A DNA stretch of 64,000 nucleotides from Candidatus Limosilactobacillus merdigallinarum (GCA_019114515.1 DXFH01000011.1:73631-137630); one strand, 5' to 3'; shown: positions 25,098 through 59,462, counted from the stretch's first letter. The notes: generated by a model from the sequence alone, not told the origin. A program made the numbers and translations.

Positions 25098-25851
25098 ACC
25101 CATCTTAGAATTAAAGAACATTCAAACCATTGTCAACCGCCATACCAGCAACGAAACGAAGATTCTGCGCGGAATTAACCTAACTATTAATACGGGTGAC
25201 TTTATCACCGTGGTCGGGACAAACGGTGCCGGCAAATCCACATTGTTTAACGTCATTGCGGGTAATCTTCCGGCAGATGAAGGGCAGATCCTGCATAATG
25301 GAAAGGATATTACTCATGCAAGTGAAGAAGAACGAACTAAGTTTTTAGCGCGCGTTTTTCAAGATCCTAAATTAGGAACTGCTCCCCGAATGACGGTTGC
25401 AGAAAACATGCTTTTGGCAACCAAGCGTGGTGAGCACCGTCCGCTATTGCCACGTAAATTAAAGACGCAGATCCCCCAGTTTACGAAACTGGCTGCTACG
25501 ATGAATAATGGCTTGGAAAATCGGATGAATACGGCAACGGGTGCCCTGTCTGGCGGCCAGCGGCAGGCACTAAGCTTCCTCATGACCACCATCAAACGGC
25601 CAGACCTCTTATTACTGGATGAACATACAGCGGCTTTGGATCCACACACTAGTCGTAACCTGTTGCAGGCAACTGATCAACGCATTAAGGAAGATCATTT
25701 GACCGCATTGATGATTACCCACCATTTGGAAGATGCGCTGAAGTACGGTAACCGTCTGATTGCTTTAAAGGACGGGCAAATCATCGCCGACGTAAGTGGT
25801 CAAGAAAAAGATGCCTTGACGGTGCAGGATCTTTATCGTTATTTTGAATAA
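25090..25851 (+). CDS. ABC transporter ATP-binding protein
   Basis: Walker A GTNGAGKSTLFN, signature LSGGQRQALS and Walker B LLLLDEHTAALD. It overlaps the permease gene. Confidence 0.93.
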   Translation: MTKPILELKNIQTIVNRHTSNETKILRGINLTINTGDFITVVGTNGAGKSTLFNVIAGNLPADEGQILHNGKDITHASEEERTKFLARVFQDPKLGTAPRMTVAENMLLATKRGEHRPLLPRKLKTQIPQFTKLAATMNNGLENRMNTATGALSGGQRQALSFLMTTIKRPDLLLLDEHTAALDPHTSRNLLQATDQRIKEDHLTALMITHHLEDALKYGNRLIALKDGQIIADVSGQEKDALTVQDLYRYFE

Positions 25852-55052: not shown

Positions 55053-55391
55053 ATGAGTAAGAAGAACCAATATAAAGTTTTAAAATTCTATGGCTTACCG
55101 GTAGAAAACGATCCTTCTGGCAATTGGGAATTACGTGGCGATGCTGATGGTCAAAGCAAGATCCACACTTGGCGTATTGGCAAGCATACCAAGGGCAAAT
55201 ATACCGGTCCCGGGCAACTGCTATTAACGGAAAATAATTTGACGGTAATGATTGTGGCAGCCGAGCCAATGGCTTTCAAAGATCGACACCAAGAAACGCC
55301 ATGTCAACGGCTCTTAACTGCCCAGGCGAGGCCTGAGTTATTGAAGCAGGGGCAAACAATTTGGCAACAAAAAAACGAAGCTAATCATTAA
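55053..55391 (+). CDS. Hypothetical protein (112 aa)
   Basis: It starts 3 nt after the preceding stop, so it is probably co-translated. I recognise no motif. Confidence 0.5.
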   Translation: MSKKNQYKVLKFYGLPVENDPSGNWELRGDADGQSKIHTWRIGKHTKGKYTGPGQLLLTENNLTVMIVAAEPMAFKDRHQETPCQRLLTAQARPELLKQGQTIWQQKNEANH

Positions 55392-55546: not shown

Positions 55547-55918
55547 TTATTTTAAGTCCTTGCTTAGTTGCTCTTGCAGGATAACGGCTTGGTTATGGTC
55601 AGGATCTTTCGCCCCGTATAAGAGAATAACATTGCCATTTGTTGACTGTTCTTTTATGGTTGTGAGCAACTGCTGATAAGCATCGTTATCTTGTAATTCT
55701 TTTAAATAGCGTTGCTTAAATTCAGGAAACTTGTCGGCATCGTGATTAAACCATTTGCGCAGCTCAGTACTTGGGCCCACTTCTTTGAGCCACAGGTCTA
55801 GGTGGGCATTAACCTTAGAGATTCCCCGTGGCCATAGACGGTCAACTAAGATACGGTAGCCATCAAGATCGGCGGGTTTGGTGTAAATTCGTTCGAGTTT
55901 AATTGCCAAAATGAACAT
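55547..55918 (-). CDS. DUF488-family protein (YeaO-like)
   Basis: 123-aa ORF with RILVDRLWPRGISK and WLKEVGPSTELRKWFNHD, the characteristic DUF488 blocks. Confidence 0.8.
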   Translation of the reverse strand: MFILAIKLERIYTKPADLDGYRILVDRLWPRGISKVNAHLDLWLKEVGPSTELRKWFNHDADKFPEFKQRYLKELQDNDAYQQLLTTIKEQSTNGNVILLYGAKDPDHNQAVILQEQLSKDLK

Positions 55919-55966
55919 CTCCTTTGTGTGTTAGGTCTATCATAGAATTATTGAGGAGGGAAGCAA

Positions 55967-56611
55967 GTGTTAACAACATATCAACAATTTTTTACGGGCC
56001 GACCGACGAAAGAAATTGCCAAAGATCTTCTGGGACGGCTATTGATTTACGACGGACCAGAAGGAAAAGTCGGGGGCTGGATCGTTGAAACCGAAGCGTA
56101 TTTAGGTGAAAAAGATACTGCTTCCCATGCCTATGGCGGCCGGCGTACTGGATATTCTGAGTCTTTGTATGGACAGCCAGGTGATTTATATATCTATCAA
56201 ATACGGTCACACTATTGCGTCGATATCGTCGTACAAAATAAAGATGAACCACAGGGAATTCTGTTACGAGCAATTGAACCAGCGCTGAACATTCCCCTAA
56301 TGAAACAGCATCGTCATCAAACTGGGGTCACGATCAGCAATGGACCAGGTAAATTGATGATGGCATTAGGTGTGCAATCGCGCCAGTTGGATGGGCAATC
56401 AATGGAAACTGCTCCGTTTCGTATCGATATAGAAAAGCGGCGAGAACCCGCAGAAATTGGTGTGAGTGCCCGGATTGGCGTGAATACAAAGCATAAAGAT
56501 GGTCGCGCGTTGAATCGTTTTTACGTTGCACATAATCCCTATGTATCCGGGATGCACAAGCGCAACAGTGATTTAGAAGCTCACGGATGGAGGGAAGACA
56601 ATGGCGCTTAG
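55967..56611 (+). CDS. DNA-3-methyladenine glycosylase (AAG/MPG family)
   Basis: 214-aa ORF with LLGRLLIY, GWIVETEAYLGEKDTASHAYGGRRT, LYIYQIRSHYCVDIV and NGPGKL. GTG start after GGAGGGAAG. Confidence 0.9.
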   Translation: MLTTYQQFFTGRPTKEIAKDLLGRLLIYDGPEGKVGGWIVETEAYLGEKDTASHAYGGRRTGYSESLYGQPGDLYIYQIRSHYCVDIVVQNKDEPQGILLRAIEPALNIPLMKQHRHQTGVTISNGPGKLMMALGVQSRQLDGQSMETAPFRIDIEKRREPAEIGVSARIGVNTKHKDGRALNRFYVAHNPYVSGMHKRNSDLEAHGWREDNGA

Positions 56612-57764
56612 TTATCAAGCAATGCTGAAGGCTGTGCAGGCGGTTGTAGCAGCTGGTAACGTTCCAAATATTGTTGGTACAGCAGGCATTGGCAAGTCGG
56701 CACTGGTCAGCGACGTCGCACAGCAAATGCATGCTCGGCTGTTTACCACCGTTGTAAGCTTAGCGGAAAAGGGCGACCTCTCGATTCCTGTGCCCCCGCT
56801 GCGTGATGAGGCGTTTGTCAAGACAAGCCGGTATGGCACCTTGGCCAACGTGCAGTTTGGTTATTCCGAAACTTTGGTAGAAATTGTTAAAAATGCGGAA
56901 GCCCATCCCGACCAAGCGATAATTTGGTTTTTGGATGAGTTTAATCGTGGTACTTCTGCTGTACAAAGTGAACTGATGAACGTTGTTTTACAGCGACAGG
57001 TCAACAGTTTGCACCTTCCTGCGCAAGTGCACATTATTATTGCCGAAAATCCAGACAGCAGCATGGAAGGCTTTGGCGAGAGTAACTACGCGGTAACGCC
57101 TGCTGATGCGGCGATCAAGGACCGTACCGTACGACTGGTGATGCAGGCATCGTTAACAGATTGGTTGACCTGGGCCAAAGAAGACGATGGTCAAGGCCAC
57201 CAGCGCATAGCACCTTTAGTAATCAAGTATTTAGAAGATCATCCAGATCAATTAAATAGAGTCGCAGTGGACTTAGGGCCGACGCCGCGTGCTTGGCAAC
57301 GGGTGTCACAAAATCTGCGGCAGCTACAAAAATTATCGACTGCTGACCAGCGACGATTAATGCCGGACGTTTTTAGTGGTGATCTGGGTATTGAAACGGG
57401 GACCGACTTTGCGACGTTTGTTTTGCAAGGAGCGCAATTAAACGACGATGACCTACAAAAGCAGTCTATTGAAAAGATAAGTTCAGCGCTACAAGAATTA
57501 AGCGAGGGTGAACGCTTAGCACAATTGCAGAAGATGGTAACCGTAACGGGTTCGCAAATATTTACCGATGCGAATGTGATTAGTAAATTGCCGTCCTTAA
57601 TCGACTTACTAAGTCCTGATGGTCAGTATGCACTAGGGCAGACGATCGGCAAGATTGCTCGTGAACATCCGGATGAATTCCGCCAGTTTTATCAGATGGC
57701 AGCAGATGACTTTGATGCAGAAAAACTATACCGGCAATTGAGTCAGATTGCCGTGCAGGAGTAA
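56601..57764 (+). CDS. AAA+ ATPase (AAA_5 / MoxR-CbbQ-like) with a ~190-aa helical C-terminal extension
   Basis: Walker A GTAGIGKSA, Walker B IIWFLDEFNRG and sensor-like IIIAENP. The ATG overlaps the glycosylase gene by 11 nt, and the GGAGGG RBS lies inside that gene. Confidence 0.85.
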   Translation: MALSYQAMLKAVQAVVAAGNVPNIVGTAGIGKSALVSDVAQQMHARLFTTVVSLAEKGDLSIPVPPLRDEAFVKTSRYGTLANVQFGYSETLVEIVKNAEAHPDQAIIWFLDEFNRGTSAVQSELMNVVLQRQVNSLHLPAQVHIIIAENPDSSMEGFGESNYAVTPADAAIKDRTVRLVMQASLTDWLTWAKEDDGQGHQRIAPLVIKYLEDHPDQLNRVAVDLGPTPRAWQRVSQNLRQLQKLSTADQRRLMPDVFSGDLGIETGTDFATFVLQGAQLNDDDLQKQSIEKISSALQELSEGERLAQLQKMVTVTGSQIFTDANVISKLPSLIDLLSPDGQYALGQTIGKIAREHPDEFRQFYQMAADDFDAEKLYRQLSQIAVQE

Positions 57765-57768
57765 ATTC

Positions 57769-59052
57769 ATGGCGGAAACGGAATTAACCAATGCGCTGCA
57801 AAACTTGGCATATTCACCGTCGGCCGATATGGCTAAACAAGTAATTGCATACACGGTGAGTAAAATTCTTGCTAAGCAGCGTTTGCTAGGGGAAATATTA
57901 ATGCGAATTCCTCGCCAAATGGTAGCGGCTAGTGATGCAGTGGCGGCGCTAGTCTGGCAGCAGGACCAATTAACGTTGACCATTGACTTTCAGCAATTAG
58001 GTAGCTTGCGTGCAGACGAGATTGAAAGCCTGCTAATGCATGAAGCCTATCACGTGTTATGGCAGCATCCACTGCGCTATGACCAAGCGAACCATCAAGA
58101 GTTAACGAGGGTGGCATGCGATGTAACAGTGAACCAATACTTGGATGAACCGCCACAAGGGACGATGACATTATCACAGCTAGAACGCGTAACGCACGCG
58201 CATTTTCAAGAAGGACAGTCATCGAGCTACTATCGTCGTCAATTGTTATCACTGCCGATTAAGAAACAAAAGCAGGTATCACAGTACTTGCAGTCTAGTG
58301 ATGATCCACAAAGACAAGCTGCCCATGCCAAACTGCATGGAACGCTAGAAACACATGCTTGTTGGCAAATGCATGGTGAAGCAAATCAGCTGCTGCGTAT
58401 GGCACAGCTTAAGAAGGTGGTGCAAGGCAGTTTAGAGATATTGACACAGCAGCAACGAGGCTTGTTACCCGAAAGGATTCGGCGGGCTTTAGGGCCAACA
58501 CAAGAACAGGTACAGCTGCCAATTAATGCGGCTATTCGGCGGATGCTGGGGGCGGTACCGAACGGTAAACAGGACTCACGTGCCCGGTTCAATCGACAGC
58601 AGCCTCTACGACTAGAGTTGCCTGGCCAGATTACGAAGTATATTAGTCGTTTGTATGTATTTGTTGATCAATCCGGATCGATGCCCGACAAAATGGTTAA
58701 AGAACTACTAGACCTCTGTCAACATTTGGTGACGCAGTTAGACACAGAAGTAGAGGTGGTGGCTTTTGATGCTGCCATTGAAGGAAAAGCGCAACCGTTA
58801 AAGAGTGCGGCCGATCATCTCGAGAATCGTCGACAAGGAGGCGGCGGTACCAGCTATCAACCAGTTTTTGACTACTTAAGTGCAGAAAAACTGGCAAGAA
58901 ATACGCCTGTTTTGATTTTGACGGATGGCTGGGGCGATGAGCAAATTAACAACCATGGTTTCCATAATGTGTTATGGCTGCTCACAACGGATTCACCGCT
59001 TTCCGTAAAAAACATCCCCACAAACGTCATGCATCTAAGGAGGGTAAAATGA
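57769..59052 (+). CDS. Zincin-like HExxH metallopeptidase domain fused to a VWA domain (DUF2201-like architecture)
   Basis: LLMHEAYHVLWQH (HExxH). C-terminal VWA with MIDAS-like VFVDQSGSM, GGGTSY and ILTDGWGD. Start ATG 57769 after AGGAG; the ORF-track start at 57748 overlaps the upstream gene. Confidence 0.8.
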   Translation: MAETELTNALQNLAYSPSADMAKQVIAYTVSKILAKQRLLGEILMRIPRQMVAASDAVAALVWQQDQLTLTIDFQQLGSLRADEIESLLMHEAYHVLWQHPLRYDQANHQELTRVACDVTVNQYLDEPPQGTMTLSQLERVTHAHFQEGQSSSYYRRQLLSLPIKKQKQVSQYLQSSDDPQRQAAHAKLHGTLETHACWQMHGEANQLLRMAQLKKVVQGSLEILTQQQRGLLPERIRRALGPTQEQVQLPINAAIRRMLGAVPNGKQDSRARFNRQQPLRLELPGQITKYISRLYVFVDQSGSMPDKMVKELLDLCQHLVTQLDTEVEVVAFDAAIEGKAQPLKSAADHLENRRQGGGGTSYQPVFDYLSAEKLARNTPVLILTDGWGDEQINNHGFHNVLWLLTTDSPLSVKNIPTNVMHLRRVK

Positions 59053-59348
59053 GTAAGGTACCATTATTAGGACCGCAATATTTAATTGAGGCATTGACTC
59101 ACAGTCAGGAATATCAGCTCGCTTGCCAATTATTATGGCTCAATTGGAATGAAGATCCCAACACACTTTATCGTCACCATGTAGAGCCGACTGACGTGCG
59201 GTTTGCCCGTGCTTTGCAGGCTAGTCAACTAGTACGCGGGCGACTAGATTTAGGAAACTATCGTGATGTTAGTCAACTGCTGGCTCACCATGGTCGCTGG
59301 TTTTCCAGCAATGGTCGGGATGAATTGCTGGCACCTTTTTTAGGTTAG
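59049..59348 (+). CDS. Small Trp-rich hypothetical protein (99 aa), last gene of the AAA+/VWA operon
   Basis: ATG 59049 overlaps the TGA 59050-59052 of the VWA gene (ATGA) and follows AGGAGGG. MSKVPLLGPQYLIEALTHSQEYQLACQLLWLNWNEDPN... Confidence 0.65.
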   Translation: MSKVPLLGPQYLIEALTHSQEYQLACQLLWLNWNEDPNTLYRHHVEPTDVRFARALQASQLVRGRLDLGNYRDVSQLLAHHGRWFSSNGRDELLAPFLG

Positions 59349-59364
59349 TGTTTCACGTGAAACA
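59349..59364. promoter_or_regulatory. Perfect 16-bp palindrome TGTTTCACGTGAAACA immediately after a stop codon
   Basis: It directly abuts TAG 59346-59348, has no T-run, and lies ~100 nt upstream of pepO. It is an operator or RNA-hairpin candidate. Confidence 0.35.
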
Positions 59365-59462
59365 TTAACCTAAGGATTAGCAACATCCTGGTGTAAAATT
59401 TAAGTATTAATAATAGGACAAATGTCGGTAACCCTGCAGTAAGTAATTCGAGGAGAAATGAT

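What the first reader, a model, noticed from the sequence alone, without database searches (positions are those of the whole stretch)
55967..59348. Translationally coupled operon: 3-methyladenine glycosylase, AAA+ ATPase, HExxH-metallopeptidase/VWA fusion and a 99-aa protein
Seen in the sequence:
- Four co-directional ORFs have essentially no intergenic space. The AAA+ ATG 56601 lies 11 nt inside the glycosylase gene, behind a GGAGGG RBS.
- The next ATG (57769) follows the AAA+ stop by 4 nt.
- The last ORF starts with an ATGA overlap at 59049-59052.
- The ATPase has GTAGIGKS and WFLDEFNR Walker motifs.
- Its partner combines HEAYH with a MIDAS-type VWA domain (DQSGS, GGGTSY, LTDGWGD).
- The fourth protein is Trp-rich and has no motif I recognise.

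Established knowledge: MoxR/CbbQ-type AAA+ proteins work with VWA partners (RavA-ViaA, CbbQ-CbbO, NorQ-NorD). vWA-MoxR modules have also been proposed from comparative genomics as conflict systems. As far as I recall, the metallopeptidase-VWA fusion family (DUF2201_N plus DUF2201) has no experimentally defined role.

Inference, which is speculative: hard-wired coupling to an AAG-family base-excision glycosylase points to a DNA-lesion-linked function. One possibility is ATP-driven proteolytic clearance of DNA-protein crosslinks formed at abasic sites, analogous to Wss1/SPRTN with Cdc48. Another is sensing of modified or alkylated foreign DNA.
Basis: partly seen in the sequence, partly recalled or inferred. 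Interest (0 to 1): 0.72.

Follow-up and report, generated by a model that had tools for sequence, protein, structure and literature searches.

The report
AAA+/zincin-VWA/small-protein trio behind mpg
The four tightly packed genes are real, but the conserved unit is a three-gene ATPase/adaptor/small-protein module of unknown client found across lactobacilli. The DNA-repair glycosylase in front of it is a neighbour in one lineage only, so a DNA-damage role is not supported.

Summary
**Observation: confirmed.** All coordinates, overlaps, ribosome-binding sites and motifs are as described. Pfam gives Pur_DNA_glyco, a weak AAA/AAA_5 hit, and DUF2201_N+DUF2201. The 99-aa protein matches nothing.

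**Interpretation: partly supported.**
- In 90 of 90 Lactobacillaceae loci the AAA+ gene, the zincin-VWA gene and a homologous ~98-aa gene are adjacent, with median gaps of -1 and 0 nt.
- mpg lies upstream in 53 of 90 loci. All 53 share one synteny block (Limosilactobacillus plus one Paucilactobacillus).
- mpg is absent from eight loci that keep that block, from every other genus sampled, and from 0 of 80 wider-family metagenome loci.
- The catalytic Glu of HExxH is replaced in 36 of 91 orthologues, including 14 of the 53 mpg-linked ones. It is kept in 100 of 112 wider-family representatives. The three His residues and the MIDAS motif stay conserved. Proteolysis is therefore not the conserved activity.
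- The AAA+/zincin-VWA pair is a very large uncharacterised family (25,181 representative clusters). Distant phage homologues have already been noted in the literature.

**Best reading:** a MoxR-type AAA+/VWA remodelling module with a clade-specific small third subunit, co-transcribed with mpg through a single ancestral gene-order event.

**Verdict:** new variant of a known kind; moderate-to-low interest.

The parts
55919..55966 (+). 48-nt intergenic region between the divergent DUF488 gene and mpg. It must hold or lie just downstream of the operon promoter. It contains the mpg ribosome-binding site, GGAGGG.
   Evidence: Read directly from the sequence. The consensus scan found no confident sigma-70 site here, so the promoter is not located.
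55967..56611 (+). mpg: AAG-family 3-methyladenine/alkylpurine DNA glycosylase, 214 aa. It is a lineage-specific first gene of the transcription unit and not part of the conserved module.
   Evidence: Pfam Pur_DNA_glyco, E 1e-50. TIGR00567 scores 139 bits against a cut-off of 116. The ETEAY catalytic motif is conserved in 53 orthologues. mpg is upstream of the trio in 53 of 90 loci, all within one synteny block.
56601..57764 (+). AAA+ ATPase of AAA_5/MoxR type, 387 aa. It has an N-terminal ATPase domain and a ~190-aa C-terminal helical region.
   Evidence: AAA and AAA_5 hits are borderline in the window protein. AAA_5 hits 18 of 18 orthologues. Invariant residues are G31/K32, D112/E113, N150, R175 and R230/R234. 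hhalign to E. coli RavA gives E 2.6e-4 and probability 42%. phrog_1297 ATPase matches at 3e-37. It is adjacent to the VWA gene in 90 of 90 Lactobacillaceae loci and in nearly all wider-family loci.
56676..56699 (+). Walker A motif, GTAGIGKS (residues 26-33).
   Evidence: Sequence. Conserved as GxAGIGKS in the orthologues.
57769..59052 (+). Zincin-like domain (residues ~1-175) fused through a linker carrying RFNRxQP to a VWA/MIDAS domain (residues ~290-427); 427 aa.
   Evidence: Pfam DUF2201_N 29.2 bits, DUF2201 38.2 bits and VWA_CoxE 26.5 bits. The AF2 model has mean pLDDT 78, about 90 over the N-terminal domain. Fold matches are integrin I domains and the NorD VWA domain in NorQD complexes. 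phrog_1314 matches over the full length at 2e-38.
58039..58068 (+). HEAYHVLWQH: the HExxHxxxxH metal site (H91, E92, H95, H100).
   Evidence: The three His residues are nearly invariant. Glu is kept in 55 of 91 Lactobacillaceae orthologues against 100 of 112 wider-family representatives.
58666..58680 (+). MIDAS motif DQSGS (D300, S302, S304). It is completed by T361 (GGGT) and D386 (TDG).
   Evidence: Invariant in alignment A1. DxSxS is present in 29 of 30 and 110 of 112 representatives.
59049..59348 (+). Small third subunit, 99 aa, predicted to have five helices. Specific to the Lactobacillaceae clade; no known fold or family.
   Evidence: A homologue follows the VWA gene directly in 90 of 90 loci. 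Conserved residues are L7, A25, L29, W33, D49, A53, L56, Y71 and L93. AF2 pLDDT 81. No PDB or BFVD match. No Pfam, NCBIfam, PADLOC or PHROG hit. Absent downstream of wider-family pairs.
59341..59372 (+). 14-bp perfect hairpin with a 4-nt loop (palindrome core TTTCACGTGAAA), overlapping the stop codon of the small ORF. It is the likely 3' end of the transcription unit, or an operator in front of pepO.
   Evidence: RNA fold of -26.9 kcal/mol, z = -5.1, with 0 of 200 shuffles folding as well. There is no U-tract, so the terminator scan did not call it.

Best explanation
The conserved unit is a three-gene module, not a four-gene one.

**Components**
1. An AAA_5/MoxR-type AAA+ ATPase with all catalytic motifs intact.
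2. An adaptor whose C-terminal VWA domain has a complete MIDAS site. Its N-terminal zincin-like domain keeps a His3 metal site.
3. A ~98-aa helical protein found only in the Lactobacillaceae clade.

**Inferred mechanism**
This rests on analogy with characterised MoxR-VWA pairs (NorQ-NorD, RavA-ViaA, CbbQ-CbbO).
- The ATPase forms a hexamer that docks the VWA protein.
- It uses ATP hydrolysis to pull or twist the VWA protein.
- The MIDAS site and the zincin-like domain hold a protein client.
- The small protein is a fixed partner: a clade-specific adaptor, a regulator, or the client itself. Its conserved D49 is a candidate MIDAS ligand.

**Peptidase activity**
Peptide-bond cleavage is possible in this window's protein, where HEAYH is intact. 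It is not the conserved activity of the clade.

**The link to mpg**
In Limosilactobacillus the module sits directly downstream of the housekeeping glycosylase gene mpg and is co-transcribed, and probably translationally coupled, with it. This arrangement arose once and has been lost several times. It therefore reflects shared transcription, not an obligatory shared function.

**Shown:** gene order, conservation, motif states, fold class and phyletic pattern.
**Inferred:** hexamer formation, docking, the nature of the client and the role of the small protein.
For: - The trio is adjacent in 90 of 90 Lactobacillaceae loci, with median gaps of -1 and 0 nt.
- It sits in at least five unrelated chromosomal contexts outside Limosilactobacillus. 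Examples are between ffh and rpsP in Secundilactobacillus and next to PBP2 and thiamine genes in Leuconostoc.
- mpg is upstream only within one synteny block (53 of 90 loci). It is missing from 8 loci that keep that block, with no remnant, and from 0 of 80 wider-family loci.
- The AAA+ catalytic residues are invariant. AAA_5 hits 18 of 18 orthologues. There is RavA similarity across Walker A and B and the MoxR-type motif.
- The MIDAS site is invariant.
- The VWA fold matches integrin I domains and NorD in NorQD complexes.
- In NorQD a finger from the VWA domain enters the ATPase pore (PMC13036017).
- Glu of HExxH is lost in 36 of 91 orthologues while the three His residues are kept. The wider family keeps Glu in 100 of 112 representatives.
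- The neighbours are housekeeping genes. There is no PADLOC hit and no close viral relative.
Against: - No client has been identified, and no recurring neighbour outside the trio points to one.
- MoxR membership is weak by sequence. AAA_5 scores 21.4 bits against a cut-off of 22, the hhalign probability is 42%, and no solved relative was found.
- No structure of the ATPase was predicted.
- The mpg-AAA+ junction is extremely tight (median 3 nt) and has been stable across about 45 Limosilactobacillus species. This is more than loose neighbourhood and could reflect a real lineage-specific functional tie.
- The role of the small protein is pure inference.
Confidence: 0.55

Rival explanations
1. 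The four genes form a DNA-lesion-linked system. After Mpg creates abasic sites, the AAA+/zincin-VWA machine removes DNA-protein crosslinks by ATP-driven proteolysis, as SPRTN/Wss1 does with Cdc48. A softer version has it extract stalled Mpg from DNA without proteolysis.
For: - The mpg-AAA+ coupling is tight and stable across Limosilactobacillus (median 3 nt, n=53).
- mpg looks like an active enzyme: the ETEAY motif is conserved.
- The window protein keeps HExxH.
- Wider-family members give sub-threshold SprT-like hits around the active-site helix, 8 of 21 with a best E of 1e-5.
- Distant phage homologues occur in the PBS1/AR9 phage group. That this group has uracil-containing DNA is from my own recollection, not a tool result.
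Against: - The mpg linkage has a single origin. It is absent in 37 of 90 Lactobacillaceae loci and in 0 of 80 wider-family loci.
- 14 of the 53 mpg-linked operons encode a Glu-less and presumably inactive peptidase.
- No DNA-binding domain was detected in any of the three proteins.
- The window protein has no SprT-like hit at E <= 0.1.
- The phage homologues also occur in many N4-like and other phages, so they point to no particular DNA chemistry.
Confidence: 0.1
2. A metal-cofactor insertion chaperone like NorQD, CoxDE or CobST. The retained His3 site, often without the catalytic Glu, holds a metal ion. ATP-driven remodelling through the VWA adaptor delivers that ion to an unidentified client enzyme.
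For: - The His3 site is nearly invariant while Glu is dispensable.
- The VWA_CoxE hit is at threshold: 26.5 bits against 26.4.
- The fold matches NorD in NorQD complexes.
- Several characterised MoxR-VWA pairs insert metals (PMC13036017; PMC7159879).
Against: - No candidate metalloenzyme is a conserved neighbour in any genus.
- The wider family keeps the catalytic Glu in 89% of representatives, which suggests a true peptidase ancestrally.
- There is no evidence of which metal, if any, is bound.
Confidence: 0.17
3. An anti-phage or conflict system of the vWA-MoxR type, sensing foreign or modified DNA.
For: - vWA-MoxR modules have been proposed as conflict systems (PMC7159879).
- The pair has many phage homologues.
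- There is a weak partial hit to bpMoxR.
Against: - No PADLOC hit.
- There is no VMAP or other effector component.
- The bpMoxR hit is 18 bits against a cut-off of 27 and covers only the P-loop region.
- The genes sit at a fixed syntenic position in essentially every Limosilactobacillus species sampled, including four L. reuteri genomes, among housekeeping genes.
- Identity tracks taxonomy.
Confidence: 0.06
4. A domesticated phage module or prophage remnant acting in virion assembly, as proposed for the jumbo-phage homologues.
For: - phrog_1297 and phrog_1314 hit at about 1e-37.
- AR9 g028/g029 show the same gene order.
- Iyer et al. 2021 proposed a virion-assembly chaperone role for the phage version (PMC7824862).
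Against: - No phage genes flank the trio in any of the 90 loci.
- The best viral-contig relatives are only 22-34% identical.
- The cellular family is very large, at 25,181 representatives.
- In AR9 the pair follows an annotated early promoter, which fits poorly with late virion assembly.
Confidence: 0.03

Closest known systems
Phage MoxR AAA+ / vWA pair with an N-terminal metallopeptidase on the vWA protein (Iyer et al. 2021, Viruses 13:63; for example Bacillus phage AR9 g028/g029)
   Same: The two-gene order and domain architecture are the same. The full-length profile match is phrog_1314 at 2e-38, and the ATPase matches phrog_1297 at 3e-37.
   Different: - Only 21-29% identity.
- The cellular Lactobacillaceae version adds a conserved ~98-aa third gene that is absent from AR9.
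- The Lactobacillaceae version has often lost the catalytic Glu.
- The phage role in virion assembly is itself only a proposal.
NorQ-NorD (also CbbQ-CbbO and CoxD-CoxE): MoxR AAA+ plus VWA metal-insertion or activase chaperones
   Same: An AAA+ gene sits next to a VWA gene with an intact MIDAS site. The VWA fold matches NorD in NorQD cryo-EM structures. VWA_CoxE hits at threshold.
   Different: - No client operon (nor, cbb or cox genes) is nearby.
- The adaptor carries a zincin-like domain in place of the NorD N-terminal domain.
- The ATPase is too divergent for any PDB sequence match.
RavA-ViaA (E. coli MoxR-VWA pair)
   Same: Adjacent, overlapping ATPase and VWA genes. The ATPase aligns to RavA from Walker A to the post-Walker-B motif.
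   Different: - The hhalign probability is only 42%.
- There is no LARA domain.
- ViaA has no zincin domain, and there is no small third gene.
vWA-MoxR ternary conflict systems (Kaur et al. 2020, eLife 9:e52696)
   Same: A MoxR-like ATPase plus a vWA protein plus a third protein. Some carry peptidase domains that are often catalytically inactive.
   Different: - No VMAP, beta-propeller or FtsH third component.
- bpMoxR is below threshold.
- The trio is core-genome and vertically inherited, whereas the conflict systems are sporadic.
SPRTN/Wss1 with Cdc48/p97 (repair of DNA-protein crosslinks)
   Same: A minimal zincin with an HExxH...H site working alongside an AAA+ ATPase. Wider-family members show weak SprT-like similarity around the active-site helix.
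   Different: - The window protein has no SprT-like hit.
- The catalytic Glu is not conserved in the clade.
- No DNA-binding or ubiquitin/SUMO-binding elements are present.
- The ATPase is MoxR-like and not Cdc48-like.

Membership tests
AAG/Mpg alkylpurine DNA glycosylase (Pur_DNA_glyco) | Profile match above the curated threshold | tested here: met
   PF02245 scores 172 bits against a cut-off of 27. TIGR00567 scores 139.4 against 116.35. The NCBIfam equivalog models are all below their cut-offs.
AAG/Mpg alkylpurine DNA glycosylase (Pur_DNA_glyco) | Catalytic Glu in the ETEAY motif (equivalent to human AAG E125; recalled from established knowledge) | tested here: met
   IVETEAYLGE is present and conserved in at least 95% of 54 sequences.
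MoxR-type AAA+ (AAA_5/AAA_3) | Walker A, Walker B, sensor 1 Asn, Arg finger and sensor 2 Arg | tested here: met
   G31/K32, D112/E113, N150, R175 and R230/R234 are invariant in 18 sequences that include phage AR9. Assigning these residues to the named roles is by position and is an inference.
MoxR-type AAA+ (AAA_5/AAA_3) | Profile match above the curated threshold | tested here: not met
   The window protein scores 21.4 bits on AAA_5 against a cut-off of 22, 14 bits on AAA_3 and 18.4 on bpMoxR against 27. However, AAA_5 hits 18 of 18 orthologues at E <= 0.01, with a best E of 3e-7.
MoxR-type AAA+ (AAA_5/AAA_3) | Detectable homology to a characterised MoxR protein | tested here: inconclusive
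   hhalign to E. coli RavA gives E 2.6e-4 and probability 42% over 96 columns. A profile search of the PDB finds only P-loop matches.
MoxR-type AAA+ (AAA_5/AAA_3) | Adjacent gene encoding a VWA/MIDAS partner | tested here: met
   90 of 90 Lactobacillaceae loci and nearly all wider-family loci with upstream DNA.
MoxR-type AAA+ (AAA_5/AAA_3) | Hexameric ring with helix-2 insert and pre-sensor-1 hairpin | not tested
DUF2201 zincin-VWA fusion family | DUF2201_N and DUF2201 both above threshold in one polypeptide | tested here: met
   29.2 bits against 23.2, and 38.2 against 26.4.
DUF2201 zincin-VWA fusion family | HExxHxxxxH site and complete MIDAS (DxSxS, T, D) | tested here: met
   HEAYHVLWQH, DQSGS, GGGT and TDG are present. 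In the orthologues Glu is often lost.
vWA-MoxR ternary conflict systems | VMAP, beta-propeller or FtsH third component with effector domains, and a sporadic phyletic pattern | tested here: not met
   The third protein has no known domain. There is no PADLOC hit. The locus is fixed and syntenic.
SprT/SPRTN/Wss1 DNA-protein crosslink proteases | SprT-like or WLM profile match and a conserved catalytic Glu | tested here: not met
   The window protein has no hit at E <= 0.1. Relatives give sub-threshold hits of 14-18 bits against a cut-off of 25.6. Glu is lost in 36 of 91 orthologues.
SprT/SPRTN/Wss1 DNA-protein crosslink proteases | DNA-dependent protease activity | not testable with these tools
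   This needs biochemistry.

The most novel reading that the evidence does not exclude
In Limosilactobacillus the trio has been recruited to base-excision repair. The AAA+/VWA machine, guided by the small protein, would use ATP to pull product-bound or crosslinked Mpg, or other proteins trapped at abasic sites, off DNA. Proteolysis by the zincin domain would be an optional extra in species that keep HExxH, such as this one. This extraction-first version survives the loss of the catalytic Glu. It would explain why the mpg-AAA+ junction has stayed within a few nucleotides across a whole genus.
Probability: 0.08. Interest if true: 0.75.

Novelty: new variant of a known kind. Interest (0 to 1): 0.35.

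Why it matters
- The AAA+/zincin-VWA pair is one of the larger protein-pair families with no experimental function. It has 25,181 representative clusters and is common in gut Firmicutes and in phages.
- The Lactobacillaceae version offers tractable organisms, such as L. reuteri, L. fermentum and L. plantarum relatives.
- It has a fixed third subunit that could serve as bait to find the client.
- It also provides a natural experiment: species with and without the catalytic Glu, and with and without mpg upstream. This could separate proteolytic from non-proteolytic roles.
- For the finding as written, the main value is negative. The attractive DNA-repair story rests on a single gene-order event.

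Tried and rejected
1. Sequence search of the PDB with the ATPase, alone and as a profile, gave only P-loop matches.
2. Fold searches with the small protein against the PDB and BFVD found nothing with E < 1.
3. NCBIfam and PADLOC found nothing for the three downstream proteins.
4. The word-indexed homologue search for the small protein gave only 4 and then 12 hits, so its alignment for AF2 was shallow.
5. The first metagenome scan, with a 41-sequence alignment, failed for lack of a conserved stretch. A narrower alignment worked.
6. I searched for mpg remnants in loci that lack it and found none.
7. A relaxed HMM search for the small protein downstream of wider-family pairs found nothing credible.
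8. I looked for a sigma-70 promoter in the 48-nt region upstream of mpg and found none convincing (and reading the sequence by eye).
9. The whole-protein fold search of the zincin-VWA model returned only VWA matches.
10. I considered a link to translation, because the trio lies near efp here and between ffh and rpsP in Secundilactobacillus. I rejected it because each is a single-lineage context.
11. I considered a link to thiamine, from the Leuconostoc neighbours, and rejected it for the same reason.

Full report
**1.

The ORF list and the sequence show four co-directional genes:
- mpg: GTG 55967..56611.
- AAA+ ATPase: ATG 56601..57764. It overlaps mpg by 11 nt, with GGAGGG 6 nt upstream of the ATG.
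- Zincin-VWA protein: ATG 57769..59052. It starts 4 nt after the preceding stop, with AGGAG upstream.
- 99-aa ORF: ATG 59049..59348, with an ATGA overlap.

All quoted motifs are present. Pfam assigns Pur_DNA_glyco (E 1e-50), borderline AAA/AAA_5, and DUF2201_N plus DUF2201 above threshold. It assigns nothing to the small protein. NCBIfam supports the glycosylase only.

The consensus scan gives no internal promoter or terminator signal above chance. A strong hairpin at 59341-59372 (-26.9 kcal/mol, z = -5.1) closes the cluster. The description 'Trp-rich' is overstated: there are three Trp, and one is conserved.

**2. The conserved unit is three genes**

I collected neighbourhoods of homologues of the zincin-VWA protein by exact look-up and by a scan of species-representative genomes (164 relatives, 80 loci kept, all Lactobacillaceae).
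- In 90 of 90 loci the AAA+ gene directly precedes the zincin-VWA gene.
- An iterated HMM finds a homologue of the 99-aa protein directly after it in 90 of 90 loci.
- Median gaps are -1 and 0 nt.
- The ATPase is the best-conserved member: median 53% identity to the window protein, with 103 positions at 95% conservation or more. The zincin-VWA protein has a median of 35%.

**3. mpg is a lineage-specific neighbour**

mpg lies upstream in 53 of 90 loci. In every case it is inside one synteny block: DUF7671, then DUF488 on the opposite strand, mpg, the trio, PepO and Macro. This block is shared by Limosilactobacillus and one Paucilactobacillus.
- Within the block the mpg-AAA+ gap is tight (median 3 nt), but it is 87 nt in P. 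kaifaensis.
- Eight loci keep the block and lack mpg: L029, L032, L040, L051, L048, L054, L058 and L064. None has a remnant.
- In Lactiplantibacillus, Furfurilactobacillus, Secundilactobacillus, Leuconostoc and relatives the trio sits in unrelated places without mpg.
- A metagenome scan of the wider family gave 80 loci. The same ATPase family is upstream of the VWA gene in nearly all loci with enough sequence. mpg is there in 0 of 80, and the small protein in 0 of 80. The neighbours are housekeeping genes.

The mpg association therefore counts as one evolutionary event.

**4. The peptidase is often inactive in this clade**

The catalytic Glu of HExxH is kept in 55 of 91 Lactobacillaceae orthologues. 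In 36 it is replaced by V, Q, L, A, N or I. These include L. fermentum (HLALH), the coleohominis group (HQALH) and Lactiplantibacillus (HVALH). Fourteen of the 53 mpg-linked operons lack it.

The three His residues (HxxxHxxxxH) and the MIDAS residues stay nearly invariant. Among representatives outside the clade, Glu is kept in 100 of 112.

So the clade has repeatedly given up catalysis while keeping the metal site and the MIDAS site. This argues against a conserved proteolytic function such as crosslink clearance. The window's own protein does keep HEAYH.

**5. Fold and family**

- The AF2 model of the zincin-VWA protein has mean pLDDT 78, about 90 over residues 1-170. It shows a three-stranded sheet followed by the HExxH helix.
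- Fold search returns integrin I domains and the NorD VWA domain in NorQD complexes.
- Wider-family members give sub-threshold hits to SprT-like (8 of 21), Peptidase_M48 and DUF5700 around the HExxH helix. This is consistent with a minimal zincin but does not establish SprT membership.
- The small protein models as five helices (pLDDT 81) and has no structural neighbour in the PDB or BFVD.
- The ATPase has invariant Walker A and B motifs. It also has invariant putative sensor 1, Arg-finger and sensor 2 residues.
- AAA_5 hits 18 of 18 ATPase orthologues.
- The ATPase shows weak RavA similarity across the MoxR-type DE(F)NR...QSELMN..QRQV stretch.
- The ATPase has no solved sequence relative.

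**6. Wider setting**

- A profile search finds 25,181 representative clusters of the zincin-VWA family, 3,770 of them at E <= 1e-30.
- Both large proteins match phage families: phrog_1297 at 3e-37 and phrog_1314 at 2e-38.
- Distant homologous pairs occur in PBS1/AR9, Staphylococcus jumbo phages and N4-like phages. In AR9 the pair follows an annotated early promoter.
- Iyer et al. 2021 described this phage pair and proposed a virion-assembly chaperone role.
- No close relative of the Lactobacillaceae clade is present in IMG/VR. The best matches are 22-34% identical.
- PADLOC has no match.
- I found no functional study of DUF2201. There is one proteomic detection in L. pentosus.

**7. How it most likely works**

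By analogy with characterised MoxR-VWA pairs, the ATPase hexamer docks the VWA protein and remodels it with ATP. In NorQD, a VWA finger enters the pore and the ATPase twists a linker (PMC13036017). The MIDAS site and the zincin-like domain would engage a protein client. The small protein is a clade-specific fixed partner: an adaptor, a regulator or the client. Its conserved D49 is a candidate MIDAS ligand.

These steps are inferred. What is shown is the conservation, the motif states and the fold class. Co-transcription with mpg in Limosilactobacillus is real. It is best read as the trio having been placed behind a housekeeping gene once.

**8. Rivals**

- The DNA-lesion hypothesis keeps some probability, about 0.1. 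The junction is unusually tight and stable, and an extraction-only version tolerates loss of the Glu.
- A metal-insertion chaperone reading, about 0.17, fits the retained His3 site but has no client.
- The conflict-system and prophage-remnant readings are disfavoured by the core-genome, syntenic, housekeeping context.

**9. Verdict**

- Observation: confirmed.
- Interpretation: partly supported. The domain calls are right; the DNA-damage inference is not supported.
- Novelty: a new variant of a known, computationally described kind. The new points are the conserved third subunit and the frequent pseudo-peptidase state.
- Interest: 0.35.

Noticed in passing
window 59341-59372: A perfect 14-bp hairpin with a palindromic core (TGTTTCAC|GTGAAACA) overlaps the stop codon of the small ORF. 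It lies about 90 nt upstream of pepO and has no U-tract. It could be a terminator, an RNA-stabilising element or a palindromic operator for pepO.
   Followed up: partly
L005:7488-7991 and L010:7462-7890: In Leuconostoc palmae and Leuconostocaceae ESL0723 a fourth ORF (167 and 142 aa, no Pfam hit) overlaps the end of the small gene. It may be an extra component in that family.
   Followed up: no
metagenome loci, e.g. L129:1112-2050, L100, L106, L123: About 12 wider-family loci carry an unrelated ~270-290-aa ORF that overlaps or abuts the stop of the VWA gene. Phage AR9 has a 226-aa ORF (g030) in the same position. Different clades may have different third components.
   Followed up: partly
L091 (Bacillus phage AR9 21869-24586): The phage AAA+/zincin-VWA pair directly follows an annotated early promoter. 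This fits poorly with the published suggestion of a late, virion-assembly role.
   Followed up: no
L008 (Secundilactobacillus odoratitofui): The trio is inserted between ffh and rpsP, inside the otherwise highly conserved ftsY-ylxM-ffh-rpsP-khpA-rimM-trmD-rplS cluster.
   Followed up: no
window 55053-55391 (DUF7671-like, 112 aa) and 55547-55918 (DUF488, minus strand): These two uncharacterised genes travel with the trio in the Limosilactobacillus/Paucilactobacillus synteny block. In L029, L032 and L040 the DUF7671 gene abuts the AAA+ gene directly, with both DUF488 and mpg absent.
   Followed up: partly
zincin-VWA residues 272-286 (window about 58582-58626): A basic linker motif, RFNRxQPxRxxLPG, lies just before the first VWA strand. 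It is among the most conserved stretches of the whole family (RxNRRQP in wider-family members). Its role is unknown; it may be the contact with the ATPase.
   Followed up: no
L012:3824-4981: The AAA+ gene is split into two ORFs in one metagenome-assembled genome. This is either a frameshift or an assembly error.
   Followed up: no
whole window: The closest named relative is Limosilactobacillus secaliphilus (small protein 88% identical). The zincin-VWA protein has 98%-identical copies only in unnamed sequencing-run assemblies. The window probably comes from an unnamed or sparsely sampled Limosilactobacillus.
   Followed up: partly
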